Source of the DNA: an uncultured Oscillospiraceae bacterium
Lineage (GTDB): Bacteria > Bacillota > Clostridia > RUG12999
Direction: 5' to 3'
Assembly (NCBI GenBank): GCA_964418245.1
Contig: CAYQKW010000004.1
Span: 22-64,021, forward strand
Length of the DNA stretch: 64,000 bases
Within the stretch, counting starts at the first letter, position 1; every line of letters starts with the position of its first letter. Of this stretch, positions 21,228 to 48,196 are shown in pieces. The notes beneath the pieces are model-generated. The model was not told the origin of the DNA. It saw only the letters and a program-made list of their open reading frames with translations, and did no database searches. A program made the position numbers and the translations under genes.

Positions 21228-21695
21228 TTATATCCGTTTTTTTCGCCGTTTATTCCTGTGTATTCTTTTCATCGCACATTTCATCATAAAAGGACGCAGA
21301 AATATAAAATTCGTCCATATATGCACAAGAAGATTGTATTTGAAGTCGTTTATGCCGATTATCGAACCGCGTCTTTCAAGTGCTGTTGCCGCCGCAACAA
21401 TCTGATTTTCGTGTATCGGATATTCAATATCCGTCTGATTATCCCCACAAAGTTTAAAATCACCGTTTTTTGTTCCGACTATTCTGTGCAGTACATAATG
21501 CCCGTTGTCACGTTTGTACAATATTATATCATATTTTTTGTATTTGCTTTTGCGTTCAAGAAAAACGCTGTCTCTCTGCTCAATCAGGGTGGGATACATA
21601 CTGTTGCCGCGCACTTTGAATTTAACCCGATTGCCGTTTTTTAAGCTTTCTTCGATAATCGGGATCATTTCCGAAATATCAACTTCATTCTTCAT
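21228..21695 (-). CDS. soluble S26 signal-peptidase-I-like protein (Ser/His, SipW/ER-type configuration)
   Basis: Ser box VRGNSMYPTL. ...HYVLHRIVG has a His where P-type SPases and LexA carry the general-base Lys. No N-terminal TM anchor. Start ambiguous (21668-21767); the ORF-track start would overlap the PqqD gene by 83 nt. Confidence 0.55.
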   Translation of the reverse strand: MKNEVDISEMIPIIEESLKNGNRVKFKVRGNSMYPTLIEQRDSVFLERKSKYKKYDIILYKRDNGHYVLHRIVGTKNGDFKLCGDNQTDIEYPIHENQIVAAATALERRGSIIGINDFKYNLLVHIWTNFIFLRPFMMKCAMKRIHRNKRRKKRI

Positions 21696-36874: not shown

Positions 36875-37543
36875 ATGTTTGATAATAAATGGGACGAACT
36901 TTTACGCGAAGAATTTGAAAAACCGTATTACCGAAGTTTGTGCGAATTTTTGACCGACGAACGCGAAAAACACAATATTTTTCCGCCGGAAGAAGATGTT
37001 TTCAACGCTCTGCGATACACGGATTATGATGATGTTAAAGTGCTTATTGTGGGTCAGGACCCATATCATGAAAAAGGGCAGGCTCACGGGCTTTCGTTTT
37101 CGGTTCGTGCGGGAATACCTCAGCCGCCGTCACTTAAAAATATATTTAAAGAATTAAACATGGATTTGGGATGTTACATTCCGAATAACGGCTGTTTGAC
37201 AAAATGGGCAAAAAACGGAGTTATGCTTTTAAACACCGTGCTCACAGTTCGCGAGGGAGAAGCAAATTCGCATAAAAACAAGGGATGGGAGCATTTTACC
37301 GACAAGGTTATATACTGCCTTAACGCACGTGAAAAGCCTGTTGTTTTTCTTCTTTGGGGGGCAAACGCCAAAGAAAAGCTTTCAATAATAACCGGGAAAC
37401 AGCATTATGTGCTTTCAACGGTTCATCCAAGTCCGCTTTCGGCAACAAGGGGATTTTTCGGATGCCGTCATTTTTCAAAAGCGAACGCAATTTTAACCTC
37501 TTTCGGTGAAACTCCTGTGGATTGGCAGATTGAAAATGTATGA
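36875..37543 (+). CDS. ung: uracil-DNA glycosylase
   Basis: LIVGQDPYH and HPSPLSA motifs. SD GGAGG lies upstream. Confidence 0.85.
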   Translation: MFDNKWDELLREEFEKPYYRSLCEFLTDEREKHNIFPPEEDVFNALRYTDYDDVKVLIVGQDPYHEKGQAHGLSFSVRAGIPQPPSLKNIFKELNMDLGCYIPNNGCLTKWAKNGVMLLNTVLTVREGEANSHKNKGWEHFTDKVIYCLNAREKPVVFLLWGANAKEKLSIITGKQHYVLSTVHPSPLSATRGFFGCRHFSKANAILTSFGETPVDWQIENV

Positions 37544-38720
37544 CGAAAAAAAAGCAATTGCGGAAAAACTTTGCCGCATATGCAGGGAACTCAATATTGA
37601 ATATTACGGTTTTGCCGACACACCTGACGGCAGTGCGGCAGTGTTTCTGTTTCCGTACAACACAGGTGTGACGCACGGCAATATATCCAAATATGCCGCT
37701 GTATGCGATTATCATATCGTAATAAAAAAATATCTGACGAAAATCGGCGATTATCTCGGTGTGCCATACAAATGCTATGCCGATGTGTCGCCTTATGACG
37801 AAGTATCGCTTGCATACCGCGCCGGTCTGGGATATATGGGTGAAAACGGACTTATCATAAATAAAAAATACGGGTCTTATGTGTTTATAGGGGAAATTGT
37901 TTTAACAGGTCTTTTTATGAATATCCGTGAAAAACCGCTCGGAACTTGTATGGAATGCGGCAACTGCAAGCAAAAATGCCCCGCCGATGCCATATGTTTC
38001 AAAGAAAGGTGCATTTCGGGAATATCGCAGAAAAAAGGCGAGCTTACAGTAACGGAAATTGAAATTTTGAAAAAAGGCAAACTTATTTGGGGCTGTGACA
38101 TATGCTCCGAGGTATGCCCGATGAATGTCAATGCCGCAAAAACCAATATTCCCGAATTTAAAAATACCGTTAAAACATCGTTATATAAAAGTGAAATAGC
38201 AGGGCTTTCGCAGAAGCGGTTTAAACAAAAATTCCCCGACCGGGCATTTACATGGCGCGGCATAAAACCGTTGCTCAGGAATATGGATATAAAGGAGGCG
38301 GTTGAAATGAAAACCGAAAAATCTTGCGGTGCGGTAATATTTAAATATGAAAACAGAGAACTTTATGTGTTGGTTATAAAACATAAAAAACAAGGACATT
38401 ATTCTTTTCCGAAAGGGCACGTTGAAGGCAGTGAAAACGAAGAAGAAACTGCAAAACGTGAAATTTTTGAAGAAACCGGGCTTAAGGTTTCTTTAGATAT
38501 GGGGTTCAGGTATATTGTTACGTATTCTCCGGCAAAAGGGGTCATGAAAGATGTTATTTATTTTGCGGCATCGCCTGTCGGCGGTGAATTGAAACCTCAG
38601 CCGGAGGAAGTATCGGAAATCAAATGGATTGCGGCAGAAAACGCATTTGACACGGTTACGTTTGATAACGACCGAAAATTGCTTTCGGCGGCATTGCAAT
38701 ATATAAACAAATTGGCGTAA
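37536..38720 (+). CDS. 4Fe-4S protein of the QueG-like/DUF1730 type, continuous in frame with a C-terminal NUDIX hydrolase
   Basis: N-terminal 255 aa with two CxxCxxC(P) ferredoxin motifs (CMECGNCKQKCP; CDICSEVCP). C-terminal 137 aa with NUDIX box GHVEGSENEEETAKREIFEETGL, preceded by an internal SD AAGGAGG + ATG at 38308. Confidence 0.5.
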   Translation: MYDEKKAIAEKLCRICRELNIEYYGFADTPDGSAAVFLFPYNTGVTHGNISKYAAVCDYHIVIKKYLTKIGDYLGVPYKCYADVSPYDEVSLAYRAGLGYMGENGLIINKKYGSYVFIGEIVLTGLFMNIREKPLGTCMECGNCKQKCPADAICFKERCISGISQKKGELTVTEIEILKKGKLIWGCDICSEVCPMNVNAAKTNIPEFKNTVKTSLYKSEIAGLSQKRFKQKFPDRAFTWRGIKPLLRNMDIKEAVEMKTEKSCGAVIFKYENRELYVLVIKHKKQGHYSFPKGHVEGSENEEETAKREIFEETGLKVSLDMGFRYIVTYSPAKGVMKDVIYFAASPVGGELKPQPEEVSEIKWIAAENAFDTVTFDNDRKLLSAALQYINKLA

Positions 38721-40310: not shown

Positions 40311-40799
40311 CTATCGCCGAATAAAGTTATATTCATCGCACAGCCTTGAAAGCTCATATATAAATTCGGCGGTTTCGGGATTAAGCATAAGTATTTTACC
40401 GATAAATTCAACTTTTTTAAGAAACTTTTTATCTATCAAACTTAAATCATCGGCATATGCAACCGGACACATCGGTTCTCCGCGAGGGTCAAGAATAATT
40501 TTAAAATCGCCCTCAACCGAAATATAGGGGAGGAGCGGAAAAATCCTGCACGCAAGCGGACGTAAATCTCTGCTGCATTTGCCGCTGCAAAACATAATCG
40601 GTACGTTTTTGCCAAGCACTTTAAAATTGCTTTCTTTCGTTTCAAAATCCGCCGACATCGGTTTTTCGTGCGGAAACAAATACATTCCGCCATCACCTTT
40701 GCAGCAAGCCGCACCGCAAAGCATTCCGCAGTCTTTTTTAAACGGTGTGGCATCGCCTATTATATCGTTTATTTTTTTATAAAATACTTCGGATTTCAT
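40311..40799 (-). CDS. YkgJ-family cysteine-cluster protein
   Basis: CxxCxxCC motif (CGMLCGAACCKG). Start MKSEVF overlaps the upstream permease stop (ATGA). Confidence 0.5.
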   Translation of the reverse strand: MKSEVFYKKINDIIGDATPFKKDCGMLCGAACCKGDGGMYLFPHEKPMSADFETKESNFKVLGKNVPIMFCSGKCSRDLRPLACRIFPLLPYISVEGDFKIILDPRGEPMCPVAYADDLSLIDKKFLKKVEFIGKILMLNPETAEFIYELSRLCDEYNFIRR

Positions 40800-41749
40800 C
40801 AGCGTTCCTCTCTGAAATAGTTTATTCCGCATCCTTTTGGCTGAGAAAATTCTTTTGATTTTCTCATTGAGGTTGCAATAAGCACTATTGCCGTTATAAC
40901 AAACGGAAGCATATCGTAAATGGCAATCGGTAAAAAGCTTGTGGGAAGATAAAGTCTTAACACTTTAAGTCCGCCGAACAAAATCGAACCGAATATTGCC
41001 GCAATGGGATTCCAGTTTACGAATATTACAAGAGCAACCGCAATCCAGCCCTGACCGCTTACACAGCCGTTATCCCATATTCCGCCGCTGTTTACGAGAG
41101 AAATGTAAACTCCGCCGAGACCGCATATTCCGCCGCCGATTAGAATATGTATATATTTCATTAAATCAACGTTGATTCCGGCAGCATCGGCAGCCGCGGG
41201 ATTTTCGCCCACACTTTTAAGTTTCAGTCCCATATATGTTTTGTTGAGATACAAACCAACGGCAATTGCAATGATTATGCCCACATAAACCATTATGCTG
41301 TGCGAGAACAGCAGCTTTCCGATATACGGAATGTCGCCGAGGAGCGGCAGTGGTTTTTCACTTACAATAGCTTTTATTTTTTCGGGAAGCTGCGGTGCAA
41401 CTTTGTTGTTTGCGGTTATCATAAGCGTACCGAAAAATTTTGCAAATCCGCTTCCGAATATTGTGAGTGCAAGACCCGTAACGGTTTGATTTGCCTTAAG
41501 AGTTACGGTTAAAAACGCATAAATCAACGCACCGAGCGCACCTATGAGAAAAGCACCTATAAGTGCAAGAATAAGGCTTTCGGTTTTATAAGCAAGGAAA
41601 AATCCCATATATGCGCCCATAAATACCATGCCCTCAACACCAAGGTTTAAATTACCTGATTTTTCGGTTAAGCTTTCTCCCGTTGTTCCGAATAAAAGAG
41701 GAAGTCCCGCTTTTATTGCGGCAAAAAGAAAATTTATTACAGTATTCAT
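40799..41749 (-). CDS. ABC transporter permease (BMP/nucleoside uptake system, NupQ/YufQ-like)
   Basis: 316-aa polytopic BPD_transp_2 family protein. Confidence 0.75.
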   Translation of the reverse strand: MNTVINFLFAAIKAGLPLLFGTTGESLTEKSGNLNLGVEGMVFMGAYMGFFLAYKTESLILALIGAFLIGALGALIYAFLTVTLKANQTVTGLALTIFGSGFAKFFGTLMITANNKVAPQLPEKIKAIVSEKPLPLLGDIPYIGKLLFSHSIMVYVGIIIAIAVGLYLNKTYMGLKLKSVGENPAAADAAGINVDLMKYIHILIGGGICGLGGVYISLVNSGGIWDNGCVSGQGWIAVALVIFVNWNPIAAIFGSILFGGLKVLRLYLPTSFLPIAIYDMLPFVITAIVLIATSMRKSKEFSQPKGCGINYFREER

Positions 41750-42813
41750 TTTCCGCCTTCCTTTCTTACAGCTATTTTATAATCTCCGAAGAAATCAAAT
41801 GCAAGTATCACAAAAAGTATAATTCCCTCAAGCACGTTGGCAACCTCTGTTGAAAGTCCCATTGTGCTTTGCATAACATTGCTTCCTTTTTCGAGTATCG
41901 CAAGCAGCATAGATATTACAATACATACGAACGGATTAAGACGAGAAAGCCATGCCACGATAATCGCTGTGAATCCAACGCCGCCGGCAACGCTTTCGCC
42001 CAATGTGAAAGCAACTCCCGAAACCTGTATAACACCTGCAATTCCGCAGATTGCTCCGCTTAAAAACATTGTTCTGATTACGATTTTATTAACGTTCATG
42101 CCGGCATATCTTGCAGTGTTTTTGCTATCGCCGACAACGCTTATTTCATATCCGTTTTTTGTATAATTAAGATATATAAACACAACAACGCAAAGTACGA
42201 GAGCAATTATCCATCCTGCGTGTATTCCGCCGACTTCGGCAAGTCTGGCATTTGTAACAAAAGTGGCTATTTTCTGGAATCCCGTTGATTTTGGGTCTTT
42301 CCAGGGGCCTTGAGTTAAAAATACAATTATGTTTAATGCTATGTAGTTAAGCATAAGCGTGAAAAGTGTTTCGTTGGTATCGTATTTGCATTTGAAATAT
42401 GCCGGTATCGCACCGAGAACACCGCCGCCAACGGCACCTGCCGCAAACATTATGAGCATAAGCGGCAAATGGGGTAAATCCGCATGGAAAAGTGCAAAAT
42501 ACGAAGCGAAAATACCGCCCATTATAATTTGTCCCTCGGCACCGATGTTCCAGAATTTCATTTTGAATGCCAAACTCACTCCGAGTGCCGTTATCAAAAG
42601 CGGAATTGCGATTTTAATTGTTGCAACCGTCGCCATTTTGCTTCTGAAAGCTCCCGAAATAATAGCCGAATACACTTCAATCGGATTTTTGCCTATAAGC
42701 GCAATAAATATTCCGCCGAGCAAAATTGCGAAAACAAACGCAAACGCCGAAAGTGCCGCACGTTTTGTGCTTGAAATGCTCTTACGTTTTACAACATGAA
42801 GTTTTTTATTCAT
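41746..42813 (-). CDS. ABC transporter permease (NupP/YufP-like)
   Basis: 355-aa polytopic protein, 4-nt overlap with the next permease. Confidence 0.75.
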   Translation of the reverse strand: MNKKLHVVKRKSISSTKRAALSAFAFVFAILLGGIFIALIGKNPIEVYSAIISGAFRSKMATVATIKIAIPLLITALGVSLAFKMKFWNIGAEGQIIMGGIFASYFALFHADLPHLPLMLIMFAAGAVGGGVLGAIPAYFKCKYDTNETLFTLMLNYIALNIIVFLTQGPWKDPKSTGFQKIATFVTNARLAEVGGIHAGWIIALVLCVVVFIYLNYTKNGYEISVVGDSKNTARYAGMNVNKIVIRTMFLSGAICGIAGVIQVSGVAFTLGESVAGGVGFTAIIVAWLSRLNPFVCIVISMLLAILEKGSNVMQSTMGLSTEVANVLEGIILFVILAFDFFGDYKIAVRKEGGK

Positions 42814-44326
42814 CTTCGGGTTCCTCCTTTTTTTCGGCAGCTGTCATCATAAGCCCGATTTTTTCTTTTGTGGCTTCGCCGGCTTTCAAAATACCCGTTA
42901 CTTCGCCGTGACAAAGCACCATAATTCTGTCGCAAAGTTCAAGCATAACGTCCAAATCCTCGCCGATGAAAAGAACCGCCGTTCCTTTTTGTTTCTGCTC
43001 GTTAAGTAAATCATATATAAGATAAGAGGAGTTTATATCAAGTCCTCGAACGGGATATGCGGTTATAAGCACATTGGGACATGAACCGATTTCTCTGCCG
43101 AGAAGTACTTTTTGAACATTTCCGCCCGAAAGCGTTTTAACGGGAGTGTATATATCGGGAGTGGATATACTGAGTTCGGACACAAGCTCGTTTGCTGTTT
43201 TTTTAGCTTCTTTTTTGCTTAAAAACGGGCTTTTGCCGTTTGAATAATTCTTAAGCAGCATATTATCGAGTATGCCCATTGAGCCGGCAAGCCCCATTCC
43301 GAGCCTGTCCTCCGGAATGAAACTCATGCTTATTCCGAGATTTATTATTTCCTGCGGAGTTTTGCCGACAATATTTACTTTTTTATGAAGAATTGCACCC
43401 TCATCAACCGGGATAAGTCCGGCAATCGCTTCGCAAAGCTGTTTCTGACCGCTTCCGGCAACACCGGCAACCCCCAGAATTTCGCCGGCATGGAGATTGA
43501 AAGTGACGTCTTTCAAAGCCGTTACGCCATCGCTGTTTTTAACCGTGAGCCGATATATTTCCAAAAGTTTTCCGCTGTGGTTCCGTTTGGGGCGGTCGAT
43601 GGAAAACTCAAGACTTTTGCCCACCATAAGCTCGGCAAGTCCTTTAACATCTTTTTCGCTTGTTTTAACGGTTTCGATACATTCGCCCTTACGCAATACG
43701 GTTACCCTATCGCTGATTTCTTTAACTTCCGCAAGCTTGTGAGTGATTATTATTATCGCACAGCCGTCGTTTTTCATATTTCTTAAAATATCGAAAAGTT
43801 TTGTTGTTTCCTGAGGAGTAAGAACTGCGGTAGGCTCGTCCAAAATAAGGATTTTTGCACCTCTGTACAGAACTTTTAAAATCTCCACGGTTTGCTTTTC
43901 CGATACGGACATATCATATATTTTTTTATTGGGGTCAATATCGAGTTTATATTTTTCACTTAAACGTTTAACCTCGTCTATTCTGCCCTTTTTCAAGAAA
44001 AAACTTTGTTTTGAACCGAGTATGATATTATCTGCCGCCGTGTAGTTTTCAACAAGCTTGAAATGCTGATGTATCATGCCTATTCCGAGTTTTAACGCAT
44101 CTTCCGGACTGTTTATTGCAACGTTTTCGCCGTTTACGGAAATCTCACCGCCGTCCGGTTTATAAATACCGGCAAGAATATTCATGAGCGTTGTTTTTCC
44201 GGAACCGTTTTCGCCCAGCAACGCCAGAATTTCACCGCCGTGTACATCCAAATTGATATTTTTGTTTGCAACGGTTTGTCCGAATGTTTTTGTAATGTTT
44301 TTCAGTTGTATCGAAACATTATCCAT
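42806..44326 (-). CDS. ABC transporter ATP-binding protein with duplicated ATPase domains (NupO/YufO-like)
   Basis: 506 aa, two Walker A motifs (GENGSGKTT; GVAGSGQKQ) plus signature motifs. Confidence 0.8.
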   Translation of the reverse strand: MDNVSIQLKNITKTFGQTVANKNINLDVHGGEILALLGENGSGKTTLMNILAGIYKPDGGEISVNGENVAINSPEDALKLGIGMIHQHFKLVENYTAADNIILGSKQSFFLKKGRIDEVKRLSEKYKLDIDPNKKIYDMSVSEKQTVEILKVLYRGAKILILDEPTAVLTPQETTKLFDILRNMKNDGCAIIIITHKLAEVKEISDRVTVLRKGECIETVKTSEKDVKGLAELMVGKSLEFSIDRPKRNHSGKLLEIYRLTVKNSDGVTALKDVTFNLHAGEILGVAGVAGSGQKQLCEAIAGLIPVDEGAILHKKVNIVGKTPQEIINLGISMSFIPEDRLGMGLAGSMGILDNMLLKNYSNGKSPFLSKKEAKKTANELVSELSISTPDIYTPVKTLSGGNVQKVLLGREIGSCPNVLITAYPVRGLDINSSYLIYDLLNEQKQKGTAVLFIGEDLDVMLELCDRIMVLCHGEVTGILKAGEATKEKIGLMMTAAEKKEEPEDE

Positions 44327-44357
44327 TATTTTGCCTCCTGTCTTTGAGATTTATAAA

Positions 44358-45260
44358 TTACTGTATATTCATACTTAATTGGGTATTTAAATGCAACAGT
44401 TGATTTGTATTGCCGTTTGGAACGTAATTTGTCAACAAAGCTTCTGTCATTGGATTGCGATTTTGCATTTTTGCTCCGATATGATAATAATGCTCTTTTG
44501 TCAATTGATTACAAAACCCCCATATCATATCAATATATTCGTTTTTTCTAAAAGAATTATGTTCCCATGTGGAAAGCATAAATTTTGAGTTTTTTTCTTT
44601 TAAAACAGCACATAATTGCAGTTCTGACGGCTCGTCCCAACTATCGTAATAATCCACATGACGTCCTATATATGGAGGATCACAATAAATAAAACTTTTT
44701 TCATCGGAATCTGATATTGTCTTTTCAAACGATTGACAGAGAAACGTCCAATCATTGTTTTGTAACTTATTTTCAATATATTTAACTTGATTGACAATTT
44801 TGGTTATATATGCTTTTGCAAATCGCTGCGGCTTATGACCGTAAGGAACGTTAAATTTATAGTCTTTATTAAATCTTATCATTCCGTTAAAACAGGAACG
44901 ATTCAGAAAAAGAAAATCAAGGGGATTGTGTGTATTATTAAATCGCTCTCTTACTTCATAGTAATATTCATCATCTTTTTCAGATAATAATGCACCTTCT
45001 TGCTCAAGAAATTCCCGAACAATAAAACTGTTTATTTTTTTATTTTTAATTTGATTGTAAAAATTAATAATATGTATATTGGTATCTGCAAACACAGCAG
45101 TACAAGGAGCTACATTAAAGCCCACAACTCCGGAACCCATAAACGGCTCAACCCAAATAGTATCTCGTTCTAAAATTACGTTTGATTTAATCAAATTAAC
45201 CAACTTGGTTTTTATACCTTGTATTTTTATCGGTGGAATATATACTTTTTCTGTATCCAT
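44358..45260 (-). CDS. Dam-family (alpha class, D12) N6-adenine DNA methyltransferase
   Basis: FMGSG (SAM motif I) and DPPY (motif IV). AT-rich codon usage relative to its neighbours. Confidence 0.8.
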   Translation of the reverse strand: MDTEKVYIPPIKIQGIKTKLVNLIKSNVILERDTIWVEPFMGSGVVGFNVAPCTAVFADTNIHIINFYNQIKNKKINSFIVREFLEQEGALLSEKDDEYYYEVRERFNNTHNPLDFLFLNRSCFNGMIRFNKDYKFNVPYGHKPQRFAKAYITKIVNQVKYIENKLQNNDWTFLCQSFEKTISDSDEKSFIYCDPPYIGRHVDYYDSWDEPSELQLCAVLKEKNSKFMLSTWEHNSFRKNEYIDMIWGFCNQLTKEHYYHIGAKMQNRNPMTEALLTNYVPNGNTNQLLHLNTQLSMNIQ

Positions 45261-45261
45261 A

Positions 45262-46110
45262 TTAGCCTTTTCTTTTTACTCCTTTCGGATTATTTAAACT
45301 TTCCGGTAATCCACGGAATTTGAGGTACTCGCTAAATGAAGAAAGTTTTTTTATTTTCCCGTTTGAATCGGGAATTTCCATTTTGCCGAAGTTCATCCAA
45401 TAATTATCAAACAACTCTTCTCCGGCTTTTGCAAAAACACCGTTGCCGTTTATTATATCGGTAATTCTTTGTATACTGCCAATATTGGCTGTATTTCCGC
45501 TTCCGCTTTTATCACTGGCAATTTTCCATTTTTCTTCTGCAAAAAAAGTGAAATTGTGTATGACAGATGGAATTGTATCAATAGTGTCTACGGTGTAGAT
45601 TTTGGTTTCTTCCGATTTATCAATGGCTGTTCTGCTGTAAATTATTCCTATACAAAAATGTCCGCTGTAGCTGTTGTACGGATATTGAATGTTTTTTGTA
45701 CTTATCCTGTTAATGAAATATTCGCCGTGAGCCCCAAGTGTAAAACCGTTACAAAAATCAGGATACTGTTCCAAACGATATGTGGTTTTTAAATCAACAG
45801 CAAATTTAATATTTCTGTTTAACTTTGAAACAAACGTCAAATCCGGATACCAATTTTGACAAGCTGCCAATTCTATCTCATATCCTATACTTTTTGCAAA
45901 AGCTAAAAAATGAGGGAACAGATGCAACTCCAAAACTTTTGAAATAATCTTTGTATCTGTAGAAATTGTATAAATATTTTTGAATATATCTATAAATCCG
46001 CGAATCGTCCATTCATCATCTTTGGAAATTTTGTTTGCCAACATATTGGCGAATTTTTTTAATTCTACGGTGAAAAACTGCTTCTCTGATGTATATGGCA
46101 ATATTATCAC
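45262..46110 (-). CDS. putative Type II restriction endonuclease (DpnII/MboI-like candidate)
   Basis: 282-aa ORF 2 nt upstream of the Dam-like MTase, same strand, AT-rich, no other family match. Sizes mirror the DpnII R/M pair. A TTG start at 46101 is likely. Confidence 0.45.
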   Translation of the reverse strand: MIILPYTSEKQFFTVELKKFANMLANKISKDDEWTIRGFIDIFKNIYTISTDTKIISKVLELHLFPHFLAFAKSIGYEIELAACQNWYPDLTFVSKLNRNIKFAVDLKTTYRLEQYPDFCNGFTLGAHGEYFINRISTKNIQYPYNSYSGHFCIGIIYSRTAIDKSEETKIYTVDTIDTIPSVIHNFTFFAEEKWKIASDKSGSGNTANIGSIQRITDIINGNGVFAKAGEELFDNYWMNFGKMEIPDSNGKIKKLSSFSEYLKFRGLPESLNNPKGVKRKG

Positions 46111-46144
46111 TCCCTTATAATATAAACTCCAACACCATAAATTT

Positions 46145-46174
46145 ATTATAGCATATATTTTGCGATTTGTAAAT
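46145..46174 (-). promoter_or_regulatory. promoter of the R-M cassette
   Basis: On minus: TTTACA - 17 nt - TGcTATAAT (extended -10), about 30 nt upstream of the REase start. Confidence 0.5.
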
Positions 46175-46214
46175 AAAAAATATATGTTATAATAAGTTCA
46201 TGAATTAAAACTAA

Positions 46215-46241
46215 GCGGACGCCGCACATTCCGGCGTCCGC
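46215..46241 (-). terminator. intrinsic terminator after the BMP lipoprotein gene
   Basis: GC-rich hairpin gcggacgccg-cacattc-cggcgtccgc (10 bp), followed on minus by uuaguuuuaauu. Lies 9 nt downstream of the stop. Confidence 0.65.
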
Positions 46242-46249
46242 AATTATAA

Positions 46250-47428
46250 TTATTTTACTTCAACATTGTTGAAATACCAGTTGATTTTTCCTGTTATTGT
46301 TGCATCGTCAAGAACTTCGTCCGCTTTGCAAACAACATTACCTGCATTGTCTGTTATATCAGCCGATGTAAGAACAGGCTCGTCACCGTTGAATGTCATG
46401 AGTTTACCTTCAAATACTTTGAAAGAACCGTCTTTAATCATAGCACGTGCGGCATCGATTTTTTCTTTTGTGCTTTCAGCACAGTTTTCCGAAAGTTCGG
46501 AAACGTCAACAAGTCCGTCATCCATTCCGCCGAAGTAGTTTTCGTTTGTCCATTTGCCTTCCATTGCTTCTTTTGTAGCTTTTGTATAATATACACCCCA
46601 GTTCCAGATAGGTGCAGTGAGGTGAGCTTTCGGAGCATCTTTTGTCATATCGGAGTTATATCCGCAGCCCCATACGCCCCTTGCCTGTGCTGCAAGCTGT
46701 GGCTGAGCTGTGTCGCAGTGCTGTGCGATAACGTCGCAATCCATATCGAGAAGAGCTTCTGCCATCTGTTTTTCAAGTTCAACGCTGAACCATGTGTTTG
46801 TTACTTTAACGTAAACTTTTGCATCGGGATTAACCGAAGCAACACCCATTGCAAAAGCATCTATTCCGCCTGTTACCTCTGCATTATCGTTACCCATTGC
46901 GGCAACATAACCGATTTTACCGGTCTGTGTTTTAAGACCTGCGGCTATACCCGAAAGGAAACGAGCCTGATATATACGTCCGAAATAGTTGTTGAAGTTT
47001 TTATCGTTTGATTTGTAACCTGTGCCGTGTGAGAATATTACATCGGGATAAGTTTCCGCAAGTTCTTCAACAGTATCCATATAGTTAAAGCTTGTTGCGA
47101 AAATTATTTTACAACCCTCTTCAATACATTCTTCAATTGCCGTTCTTGTTGCCTGTGCATCCGTATCGGGAATGTTGTTTTTACGAACAATTTGGTCATC
47201 GTTCAATTTTAATTCTTTCTGCATTTCCTGAATACCCACATCGTGAGTGTAGCTGTAGCCGGAACCGTCCGCGGGGTCGCCTATGTGGATAACACCTACT
47301 TTGAAGTCCGAGGCGTTTGATACATTGTCCGAAGTTTTTCCGTCATCTTTTTTACCGCATCCGGCAAAAGTGAATGCGCACATTGCCAAAGTCAAGACAA
47401 GTGCAGTGATTTTTGAAATTTTTCTCAT
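46250..47428 (-). CDS. BMP-family ABC substrate-binding lipoprotein (nucleoside-binding, PnrA-like)
   Basis: Lipobox LAMCAFTFAGC, periplasmic-binding-protein type I fold. Confidence 0.8.
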   Translation of the reverse strand: MRKISKITALVLTLAMCAFTFAGCGKKDDGKTSDNVSNASDFKVGVIHIGDPADGSGYSYTHDVGIQEMQKELKLNDDQIVRKNNIPDTDAQATRTAIEECIEEGCKIIFATSFNYMDTVEELAETYPDVIFSHGTGYKSNDKNFNNYFGRIYQARFLSGIAAGLKTQTGKIGYVAAMGNDNAEVTGGIDAFAMGVASVNPDAKVYVKVTNTWFSVELEKQMAEALLDMDCDVIAQHCDTAQPQLAAQARGVWGCGYNSDMTKDAPKAHLTAPIWNWGVYYTKATKEAMEGKWTNENYFGGMDDGLVDVSELSENCAESTKEKIDAARAMIKDGSFKVFEGKLMTFNGDEPVLTSADITDNAGNVVCKADEVLDDATITGKINWYFNNVEVK

Positions 47429-47473: not shown

Positions 47474-48049
47474 TTACAGACTTCTGAATACGGCTTGACC
47501 GTTTTCGATGGAATCAATTACCGCAAGAGATTTCAGGTTAATGCCCATATCTCGTATGGTTTGACCGCCGGGCTGAAACCCTTTTTCAATTGCAATTCCA
47601 ATGCCGGCAATCTCTGCCTTTGCTTGATTTGCAATATCCATAAGCCCCATAAGAGCCTTGCCGTTTGCAAGAAAATCGTCAATAATCAATATTTTGTCGT
47701 TTTCGGTTAAATATTCTTTTGCAACACGAATTTTATATGTTTTGTTTTTTGTAAATGAATAGACCTCACTGCAGTAGGTATCGGAACTCAAATTTTTTGC
47801 TTCCGATTTTTTTGCAAAAACAACGGGAACGCCAAATTCCCTTGCCGCCATACAGGCGATTGCAATGCCCGAAACCTCTACGGTGAGGATTTTTGTTATG
47901 TTTATATCGTTAAAAAGTCTTTTAAATTCTTTGCCCATTTCTTCAAGAAGGCGAATGTCTATCATATGATTTAAAAACATATCTACCTTTACTATATCGG
48001 TACCTATAAAAACCCCGTTTTCACGTATCTTTTGTTTTAATAATTCCAT
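47474..48049 (-). CDS. xpt: xanthine phosphoribosyltransferase
   Basis: MELLKQKIRENGV... start, PRPP-binding KILIIDDFLANG. SD AAGAGGTG. Confidence 0.85.
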   Translation of the reverse strand: MELLKQKIRENGVFIGTDIVKVDMFLNHMIDIRLLEEMGKEFKRLFNDINITKILTVEVSGIAIACMAAREFGVPVVFAKKSEAKNLSSDTYCSEVYSFTKNKTYKIRVAKEYLTENDKILIIDDFLANGKALMGLMDIANQAKAEIAGIGIAIEKGFQPGGQTIRDMGINLKSLAVIDSIENGQAVFRSL

Positions 48050-48196
48050 GTCGCACCTCTTTTGAATCAATCATATATAAATATTCTATCAAATAATCGA
48101 AAAAAATACAATACTTTTTATGACATATTCGGATTTTTTGTCAAATTAGTGCAAAATTTTTAATATTTTTATCTAAACATTATGCAATTTCATTAA

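What the first reader, a model, noticed from the sequence alone, without database searches (positions are those of the whole stretch)
44358..46241. AT-rich Type II R-M cassette with its own promoter, wedged between the BMP lipoprotein gene and the ATPase/permease genes of a nucleoside ABC salvage operon
The gene order on minus is xpt - BMP substrate-binding lipoprotein - [strong GC-rich terminator 46215-46241] - [promoter TTTACA-17-TGcTATAAT] - 282-aa unknown ORF - Dam-family (FMGSG/DPPY) MTase - [31-bp gap] - double-ATPase - two permeases - YkgJ. In typical bmpA-nupABC operons the SBP is followed directly by the ATPase. Here a two-gene unit with visibly lower GC and different codon usage sits between them, and the ATPase/permease genes have no recognisable promoter of their own. 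They must therefore be expressed by read-through from the R-M promoter or through the bmpA terminator. The pattern is consistent with a horizontally acquired restriction-modification module (REase candidate + Dam-like MTase; the sizes match a DpnII/MboI-type GATC system) that now transcriptionally couples defence to purine-nucleoside uptake.
Basis: partly seen in the sequence, partly recalled or inferred. Interest (0 to 1): 0.6.

Follow-up and report, generated by a model that had tools for sequence, protein, structure and literature searches.

The report
EcoRV-type restriction cassette inside transporter operon

Summary
On the minus strand the order is xpt, bmp, hairpin, promoter, R, M, a 31-nt gap, then the ABC ATPase and two permeases. 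The R-M segment is the lowest-GC stretch of the window (0.313 against 0.405).

The 279-aa ORF is an EcoRV-family nuclease (Pfam E=1e-117). All catalytic residues are conserved, and so is the recognition loop apart from T187A. The methyltransferase is 58% identical to M.EcoRV of plasmid pLG13. The predicted target is therefore GATATC, not GATC.

About 70 related genomes, and the close relatives L089, L090 and L093-L102, have bmp followed directly by the ATPase gene. Two other metagenome samples (L091, L092) carry the same insertion.

The GC-rich hairpin is host DNA. The cassette replaced the core of a second, conserved hairpin and brought the T-run, the promoter and both genes. R and M are under strong purifying selection (dN/dS 0.04-0.09), and the insertion is old (dS about 0.5).

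Homologous cassettes elsewhere sit beside tmRNA genes, one flanked by a perfect 29-nt target duplication.

No terminator-like hairpin was found after M, so read-through into the transporter genes is likely but unproven.

Insertion of R-M units into operon-like clusters is already described (Furuta et al. 2010). This is a new member of a known kind, of modest interest.

The parts
46250..47428 (-). bmp: BMP/PnrA-family ABC substrate-binding lipoprotein gene (host, upstream flank)
   Evidence: PF02608 E=2.4e-51. DNA homology with L001, L089 and L090 runs up to its stop codon and, in L089 and L090, through hairpin 1.
46215..46241 (-). Hairpin 1: GC-rich stem-loop of 10 bp. It is host-derived, and its loop is inverted relative to the empty-site alleles.
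   Evidence: terminator-like site. The same stem is present in the empty sites L089 and L090. Loop reverse-complement match is 5-6 of 7, against 2-3 of 7 read directly.
46211..46214 (-). Left remnant (TTAG) of host hairpin 2, whose core was replaced by the cassette
   Evidence: Empty sites read GCTTATAGGTTAT...; the window reads GCTTAG|TTTTAATT and L091 reads GCATAG|TTTTAAC.
44356..46210 (-). Inserted segment (about 1.86 kb): T-run, promoter, R and M. It is absent from the empty-site relatives.
   Evidence: Homology breakpoints against L001, L089 and L090. Lowest-GC stretch of the window. Coding part is 76-77% identical in DNA to cassettes at tmRNA loci.
46145..46173 (-). Cassette promoter: -35 TTTACA (46173-46168), 17-nt spacer, extended -10 TGcTATAAT (-10 hexamer 46150-46145)
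   Evidence: 11/12 matches plus TG. ATGnTATAAT is invariant in the window, L091, L081 and L085.
46136..46202 (.). 26-nt inverted repeat (88% complementary) bracketing the -35 element. The left arm, read on the + strand, is a second TGTTATAAT box.
   Evidence: pair I1. L091 has a shorter version. Function unknown.
45262..46101 (-). R: EcoRV-family Type IIP restriction endonuclease, 279 aa from a TTG start preceded by AAGGGAG
   Evidence: PF09233 E=1.4e-117. PDB EcoRV E=1.5e-38. K38, E45, Q69, N70, D74, D90, K92, G182-T186 and N188 are invariant. dN/dS 0.089 against L091.
44358..45260 (-). M: Dam-family (D12 class) N6-adenine MTase, an M.EcoRV orthologue. Its ATG lies 1 nt after the R stop codon.
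   Evidence: PF02086 E=3.4e-46 and TIGR00571 at 200 bits. 58% identity to the pLG13 MTase. dN/dS 0.043.
44327..44355 (-). Right junction: the TATAA remnant of hairpin 2, then the host spacer with the ATPase ribosome-binding site (GGAGG). No terminator.
   Evidence: Homology to L001, L090 and L089 resumes at 44354, 44351 and 44345. No minus-strand terminator-like site here.
40799..44326 (-). Downstream host genes: double-ATPase (42806-44326) and two permeases (41746-42813, 40799-41749) of the BMP-type ABC transporter
   Evidence: PF00005 twice and PF02653. Contiguous with bmp in about 70 relatives.

Best explanation
This is a compact, integrase-less Type IIP restriction-modification operon of the EcoRV kind. 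It was acquired horizontally and inserted into the bmp-ATPase spacer of an xpt-bmp-ABC transporter operon in a gut Clostridia lineage.

Anatomy (shown):
- The insertion removed the core of a conserved 19-21-bp intergenic hairpin. Only its outer few bases remain on each side.
- The host's GC-rich hairpin 1 was kept.
- The cassette brought in a T-run, a strong sigma-70-type promoter with an extended -10, R (TTG start) and M (ATG 1 nt after the R stop).

Mechanism (inferred from homology):
- R is a PD-(D/E)XK homodimer that cuts GAT^ATC.
- M methylates an adenine in GATATC and so protects the host's few sites.
- The two genes are made from one transcript with translational coupling. The weak TTG start on R may help limit nuclease production.

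Consequence for the operon (inferred):
- In empty alleles the ATPase and permease genes have no promoter of their own and depend on read-through across the two hairpins.
- In the filled allele, hairpin 1 followed by the new T-run looks like a better terminator.
- No terminator-like hairpin follows M, so transcripts from the cassette promoter should continue into the ATPase and permease genes. Any read-through from bmp should also add to R-M transcription.

History (shown):
- The filled allele has a single origin. It is shared with L091 and L092.
- It is old (dS about 0.5), and both genes are under strong purifying selection.
For: Family identity.

Insertion:
- About 70 related loci have no R or M.
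- All 22 contigs read for the sister lineage are empty.
- Empty alleles L089 and L090, filled alleles L091 and L092.
- Breakpoints at 46250/46212 and about 44354.
- GC outlier and low GC3.

The cassette is a portable unit with its own promoter: the same R-to-M pair, at 79% amino-acid identity, sits beside tmRNA genes in other genomes, one copy with a perfect 29-nt flanking duplication. TGnTATAAT is invariant in all four copies.

Single origin of the filled allele: the junction and hairpin-1 region are 95% identical between the window and L091 but only 75% identical to L090, and the two filled alleles share an inverted loop.

Selection: dN/dS is 0.089 for R and 0.043 for M. dS is 0.46 and 0.58, against 0.66 for bmp.

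Operon wiring:
- Empty-site spacers consist of two hairpins plus a ribosome-binding site, with no room for a promoter.
- There is no terminator after M.
- The gap is 31 nt.
Against: - No expression, methylation or cleavage data exist. Specificity is inferred from homology, and recognition-loop residue T187 is Ala.
- Weak promoter-like matches inside M (for example 44552-44524, 9/12 plus TG) could drive the ATPase gene independently.
- GATATC depletion cannot be credited to this copy, because the empty-site relatives are equally depleted.
- The bmp tree does not make the two filled lineages sisters (window+L091 in 1 of 300 bootstraps). The relationships are star-like. The history therefore includes retained polymorphism or allele exchange by recombination and is not simple vertical descent.
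- The right junction in L091 is cut off by the contig end.
Confidence: 0.8

Rival explanations
1. DpnII/MboI-type GATC system: R cuts unmethylated GATC and M is a Dam-like GATC methylase.
For: M belongs to the Dam family (TIGR00571). The host genome is almost free of GATC (4 sites against about 198 expected).
Against: R matches only the EcoRV family, and the GATATC-reading loop GSGNTxN is conserved. M is 58% identical to M.EcoRV but scores only 101 bits against the 441-bit cutoff of the Dam equivalog. GATC depletion is shared by relatives that lack the cassette (L001, L003, L005, L016, L021).
Confidence: 0.03
2. The gene pair is ancestral to this operon and was lost from the relatives.
For: It is present at the identical position in a second lineage diverged by dS about 0.5-0.66 (L091 and L092). 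The bmp tree places the empty L090 no further from the window than the filled L091.
Against: About 70 loci across Clostridia lack it. The empty alleles retain an intact, conserved hairpin 2 that the filled allele has lost. Composition is foreign. Close homologues sit in unrelated tmRNA contexts.
Confidence: 0.04
3. The cassette is a decaying or silent relic, or M alone is functional as an orphan methylase. It has no defence role and no effect on the operon.
For: There is no functional data. R-M systems often decay. There is no controller protein.
Against: Both ORFs are intact in two lineages, with dN/dS of 0.089 (R) and 0.043 (M). All catalytic residues are conserved. The near-consensus promoter is conserved.
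Confidence: 0.08
4. The insertion is polar or neutral for the transporter. The ATPase and permease genes are still expressed only from the upstream operon promoter by read-through, or from a cryptic promoter inside M, and the cassette promoter contributes little.
For: Hairpin 1 is also present in the empty alleles, where read-through must occur. Weak promoter-like sites lie inside M.
Against: The cassette promoter is the strongest consensus match in the region (11/12 plus TG). No terminator separates M from the ATPase gene. In the filled allele hairpin 1 has gained a T-run.
Confidence: 0.3

Closest known systems
EcoRV restriction-modification system of E. coli plasmid pLG13 (NC_005019)
   Same: R belongs to the same Pfam family, with 37% identity over the whole fold. 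Catalytic E45, D74, D90 and K92, the Q-loop Q69 and N70, and the recognition loop G182-T186 plus N188 are conserved. M is 56-58% identical, with FxGxG and DPPY.
   Different: Gene organisation. pLG13 has an HTH controller plus R transcribed divergently from M. Here R and M are tandem, 1 nt apart, under one promoter and with no controller. R has N- and C-terminal extensions and T187A. The location is chromosomal, inside an operon, and not on a plasmid.
Tandem EcoRV-family R-M pairs of gut Clostridia (L081-L086) and Rhodothermus marinus pRMAR01
   Same: The same R-to-M tandem architecture with a 1-2-nt or overlapping junction. Protein lengths are 279 and 299 aa. R is 79% identical. The promoter type is the same.
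   Different: Those Clostridia copies lie directly 3' of a tmRNA gene next to smpB, one with a perfect 29-nt target duplication. The window copy lies inside an ABC transporter operon, has no duplication, and replaced a hairpin.
Mobile R-M units described by Furuta, Abe and Kobayashi 2010 (PMC2853133): insertion with long target duplication, substitution, and insertion of a Type II R-M into an operon-like structure
   Same: Presence/absence polymorphism with conserved flanks, no linked mobility gene, and an intergenic insertion that leaves the neighbouring genes intact (compared).
   Different: The window shows no target duplication but a small substitution of a palindromic hairpin core. The allele is old and conserved, not recent.
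Stable intergenic hairpins after the binding-protein gene of ABC operons, such as the malE-malF REP elements of E. coli (from my own knowledge, not tested here)
   Same: The empty-site spacer consists of very stable hairpins placed between the binding-protein gene and the membrane-component genes.
   Different: No evidence here that they set differential mRNA stability. No sequence relation to REP elements.

Membership tests
EcoRV-family Type IIP restriction endonuclease (PF09233) | Full-length match to the family profile above the curated cutoff | tested here: met
   391.8 bits against a cutoff of 25, covering profile positions 4-244 of 244. PDB EcoRV E=1.5e-38.
EcoRV-family Type IIP restriction endonuclease (PF09233) | PD-(D/E)XK catalytic residues (EcoRV E45, D74, D90, K92) | tested here: met
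   Invariant in the 6-sequence alignment that includes authentic EcoRV. The roles of these residues are from my own knowledge of the EcoRV literature.
EcoRV-family Type IIP restriction endonuclease (PF09233) | GATATC-reading recognition loop (G182-S183-G184-N185-T186-T187-N188) and Q-loop (Q69, N70) | tested here: met
   All conserved except T187 to Ala.
EcoRV-family Type IIP restriction endonuclease (PF09233) | Blunt cleavage at GAT^ATC | not testable with these tools
   Needs an enzyme assay.
M.EcoRV-type Dam-family (D12, alpha-group) N6-adenine methyltransferase | Family profile above cutoff, with motifs FxGxG and DPPY | tested here: met
   PF02086 at 158.5 bits against 22. TIGR00571 at 200.3 bits against 114.85. 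FMGSG and DPPY are visible.
M.EcoRV-type Dam-family (D12, alpha-group) N6-adenine methyltransferase | Closer to M.EcoRV than to GATC Dam enzymes | tested here: met
   58% identity over 92% of the length to the pLG13 MTase. Only a partial match to E. coli Dam (E=1e-20, residues 20-198). The Dam equivalog scores 101 bits against a 441-bit cutoff.
M.EcoRV-type Dam-family (D12, alpha-group) N6-adenine methyltransferase | m6A at GATATC | not testable with these tools
   Needs a SMRT or nanopore methylome.
DpnII/MboI-type GATC R-M system | Nuclease of the DpnII/MboI family | tested here: not met
   The only Pfam hit of R is EcoRV. The PADLOC and PDB results agree.
C-protein-controlled R-M system (as in pLG13 EcoRV) | Small HTH controller gene in the cassette | tested here: not met
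   There is no further ORF of at least 60 aa on the coding strand between 44358 and 46249. The antisense ORFs have no Pfam hit at E up to 1.
Mobile R-M unit: insertion into an operon-like cluster (Furuta 2010) | Empty and filled alleles with conserved flanks among close relatives | tested here: met
   L089, L090, L001 and L093-L102 are empty. The window, L091 and L092 are filled.
Mobile R-M unit: insertion with long target duplication (Furuta 2010) | Direct repeats of target sequence flanking the unit | tested here: not met
   No flanking direct repeat in the window; about 37 nt of hairpin 2 was deleted instead. The feature is met for the homologous cassette in L085, which has a perfect 29-nt repeat.
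Integrase- or transposase-linked genomic island | Linked mobility gene | tested here: not met
   The insert holds only R and M. The tmRNA-linked copies also lack an integrase between tmRNA and smpB.

The most novel reading that the evidence does not exclude
Two readings remain open.

1. The integrase-less cassette inserts preferentially at or next to strong hairpins or palindromes. It lies just after the tmRNA terminator with a 29-nt duplication in other genomes. Here it sits in the core of a perfect 19-21-bp palindrome, with hairpin 1 flipped.

2. At this locus it has been co-opted as the promoter module for the membrane components of the transporter. Hairpin 1 plus the imported T-run would insulate bmp, and the cassette promoter would drive R, M, the ATPase and the permeases. 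Loss would then be counter-selected twice: by post-segregational killing and by loss of transporter expression. That would explain in-place retention over dS of about 0.5.
Probability: 0.15. Interest if true: 0.55.

Novelty: new member of a known kind. Interest (0 to 1): 0.3.

Why it matters
As it stands, this is a cleanly resolved textbook-type example of an R-M unit behaving as a minimal mobile element. Both the empty and the filled alleles are in hand, the breakpoints are known to within a few bases, and there is evidence of long-term purifying selection.

It corrects the predicted specificity from GATC to GATATC. It also shows that the 'terminator' is a chimera of a host stem and a cassette T-run.

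If the transcriptional rewiring were confirmed, it would be an example of a selfish defence cassette becoming structurally embedded in the regulation of a metabolic operon. If hairpin-directed insertion were confirmed, it would bear on the open question of how integrase-less R-M units move.

Tried and rejected
- Exact-sequence look-ups of the window's BMP, ATPase and R proteins found no recorded gene positions. I reached strain-level relatives through the 90% cluster of BMP instead.
- A degenerate DNA pattern for the bmp 3' end found nothing in the JGI metagenome contigs.
- No relative of R was found in viral contigs, so there is no evidence for a phage vector.
- Rfam found no riboswitch or other known RNA in 38-50 kb at the gathering threshold. 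Only chance-level hits appeared at E up to 1. Native control of the operon remains undefined.
- I looked for flanking direct repeats or a target-site duplication in the window and found none.
- I considered using the GATATC depletion (2 sites in 64 kb) as evidence that this copy is active. I rejected that because the empty-site relatives are equally depleted.
- I considered simple vertical inheritance from a common ancestor of the window and L091. The bmp tree does not support a sister relationship, so I claim only a single origin for the filled allele, based on the shared junction.
- I looked for a hidden controller gene on either strand of the cassette and found none.
Full report
**Observation.**
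- The genes are xpt (47474-48070; xanthine phosphoribosyltransferase equivalog at 266 bits against a cutoff of 177), bmp (46250-47428; PF02608), a 282-aa ORF (45262-46110), a 300-aa ORF (44358-45260), an ABC double-ATPase (42806-44326) and two permeases.
- The hairpin at 46215-46241 has a 10-bp stem with 9 G-C pairs.
- The promoter TTTACA-17-TGcTATAAT scores 11/12 and is the best match in the 8.6 kb scanned.
- The gap from M to the ATPase gene is 31 nt and contains GGAGG but no hairpin.
- The cassette has a GC content of 0.313, lower than any non-overlapping window of the same size in the 64 kb (minimum 0.355, z = -4.8). GC3 is 0.25-0.32 against 0.37-0.42 in the neighbouring genes.

**What the two genes are.**
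- The first ORF is an EcoRV-family endonuclease. It scores 391.8 bits on PF09233 over the whole profile, matches the PADLOC model REase_II, and matches EcoRV crystal-structure chains at E=1.5e-38.
- Aligned with authentic EcoRV from pLG13 and four homologues, these residues are invariant: K38, E45, Q69, N70, P73, D74, D90, K92, G182, S183, G184, N185, T186 and N188. Only T187 differs (Ala). Their roles as catalytic residues, Q-loop and recognition loop are from my own knowledge of the EcoRV literature.
- Most of the closest homologues are 279 aa, and a Shine-Dalgarno sequence lies 7 nt before the TTG at 46101. The real start is therefore TTG 46101.
- The second ORF is a Dam-family D12-class MTase with FMGSG and DPPY. 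It is 58% identical to the MTase of pLG13, the classical EcoRV plasmid. It fails the E. coli Dam equivalog cutoff (101 against 441 bits).
- The predicted specificity is therefore GATATC, not GATC.
- The organisation differs from pLG13, which has an HTH controller plus R transcribed divergently from M. Here R and M are tandem and 1 nt apart, with no controller gene on either strand. Rhodothermus pRMAR01 has the same tandem arrangement.

**It is an insertion.**
- In about 70 related genome loci the order xpt-bmp-ATPase-permease-permease is uninterrupted, with bmp-ATPase gaps of about 20-400 nt.
- DNA homology with the closest reference genome (L001) stops at the bmp stop codon and resumes 3 nt after the M stop codon. 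In the window, 1,895 bp replaces 178 bp.
- Through the 90% cluster of BMP I retrieved strain- or species-level relatives. L089 and L090 are empty (gaps of 223 and 110 nt). All 22 contigs read for the P0241 lineage are empty. L091 and L092, from two other samples, carry bmp-R-M at the same position.

**Junctions.**
- The empty sites carry two abutting hairpins. Hairpin 1 is GCGGACGCCG-loop-CGGCGTCCGC. Hairpin 2 is a perfect 19-21-bp stem (TTATAGGTTAT...ATAACCTATAA).
- L001 has an analogous perfect hairpin of different sequence, so this is a conserved structured element.
- In the window and in L091 hairpin 1 is retained. Only TTAG (or ATAG) on the left and TATAA on the right remain of hairpin 2. 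Its core of about 37 nt is replaced by the cassette.
- The T-run after hairpin 1 (GTTTTAA) belongs to the insert. The 'strong terminator' is thus a host stem plus an imported T-run.
- No target duplication is present.
- The hairpin-1 loop in the filled alleles matches the reverse complement of the loop in the empty alleles at 5-6 of 7 positions, against 2-3 of 7 when read directly. This suggests a palindrome-associated rearrangement.

**The cassette as a portable unit.**
- The closest R homologues (79% identity) occur as the same R-to-M pair immediately 3' of a tmRNA gene, next to smpB in L081-L083 (the L085 and L086 contigs end first) (tmRNA at 169 and 153 bits).
- In L085 the cassette is flanked by a perfect 29-nt direct repeat of the tmRNA 3' end. 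This matches the 'insertion with long target duplication' of Furuta et al. 2010 (PMC2853133).
- No integrase lies between tmRNA and smpB.
- The promoter travels with the cassette: ATGnTATAAT is invariant in the four copies.
- No relatives were found in viral contigs.

**Age and selection.**
- Between the window and L091, dS is 0.66 for bmp, 0.46 for R and 0.58 for M. dN/dS is 0.058, 0.089 and 0.043. Both cassette genes are under strong purifying selection, and the insertion is not recent.
- The junction and hairpin-1 segment is 95% identical between the filled alleles and 75% identical to L090. That supports a single origin.
- The bmp tree is star-like (informative-site patterns 51/64/66). Neighbour-joining pairs the window with the empty L090 in 238 of 300 bootstraps. 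Either the polymorphism was retained or alleles were exchanged by recombination across the flanks.

**Consequences for the operon (inferred).**
- The empty-site spacers have no room for a promoter, so the ATPase and permease genes are natively expressed by read-through.
- In the filled allele the cassette promoter is followed by R, M, 31 nt and the ATPase gene, with no terminator between them. Read-through from the cassette promoter is the simplest expectation.
- Weak promoter-like sites inside M and residual read-through of hairpin 1 cannot be excluded.
- No riboswitch was detected upstream of xpt.

**Restriction-site avoidance.**
- GATATC occurs twice in 64 kb. The expectation is 13.9 from shuffles, 20 from base composition and 34 from a Markov model.
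- The empty-site relatives are equally depleted, so this reflects pressure across the whole clade and not this particular copy.
- GATC is almost absent (4 sites against about 198 expected). CTAG (0 sites) and GGCC (19 against 173 expected) are also depleted.
- The GATC depletion is shared by relatives that lack the cassette.

**Verdict.**
It is wrong about the enzyme type. The transcriptional coupling is plausible but untested.
- Insertion of a Type II R-M into an operon-like structure is already documented. This is a new member of a known kind.

Noticed in passing
whole window (GATC sites at 21663, 22478, 44678, 53508): Extreme avoidance of several short palindromes. GATC occurs 4 times against about 158-231 expected, CTAG 0 against 7, GGCC 19 against 173, GTTAAC 0 against 10, TTCGAA 0 against 13 and GAATTC 2 against 25. 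One of the four GATC sites lies in the DPPY codons of the imported M gene. The GATC depletion is shared by several relatives (L001, L003, L005, L016, L021), which points to long-standing restriction pressure on GATC, CTAG and GGCC in this clade.
   Followed up: partly
L090:3458-3502, L089:3724-3770, L001:5731-5778 (empty-site bmp-ATPase spacers): A perfect 19-21-bp hairpin sits directly after hairpin 1. Its sequence differs in the three lineages but is always fully paired (fold z-scores -7 to -12). It is a conserved structured element of unknown role, and the cassette destroyed it in the window.
   Followed up: partly
window 46222-46234 (loop of hairpin 1): The 7-nt loop in the filled alleles (GAATGTG, AAATGTG) matches the reverse complement of the loop in the empty alleles (CACAATT, CACTTTT) at 5-6 of 7 positions, against 2-3 of 7 read directly. 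The hairpin seems to have been flipped in the allele that carries the insertion.
   Followed up: partly
L081:5526-7830, L085:5516-7827 (also L082, L083, L086): Homologous R-M cassettes lie directly 3' of a tmRNA gene, next to smpB in L081-L083 (the L085 and L086 contigs end before any smpB). No integrase lies between tmRNA and smpB. L085 has a perfect 29-nt direct repeat (TCAGCTCCACCATAAAAAAACACGTCACT) of the tmRNA 3' end on both sides, spaced 1944 nt apart. In L081 the downstream copy is diverged.
   Followed up: partly
window 46136-46161 and 46177-46202: A 26-nt inverted repeat (88% complementary) brackets the -35 element of the cassette promoter. Read on the + strand, the left arm is a second extended -10 box (TGTTATAAT) that points antisense into bmp. 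L091 has a shorter version. It could be an operator, a divergent promoter or a scar of the insertion.
   Followed up: no
   Followed up: partly
L099:5397-7919; L095:5185-6961: In one sister-lineage contig the ATPase and first permease are called as a single 840-aa fusion. In another the ATPase gene is not called, and that contig contains 68 Ns. These are probably assembly or frameshift artefacts.
   Followed up: no
window 37506-38720: A 404-aa ORF whose N-terminal part has 4Fe-4S-type cysteine clusters and whose C-terminal part looks NUDIX-like (GHVEGSENEEETAKREIFEETG). It may be a two-domain fusion. This was seen only in the translation and was not analysed.
   Followed up: no
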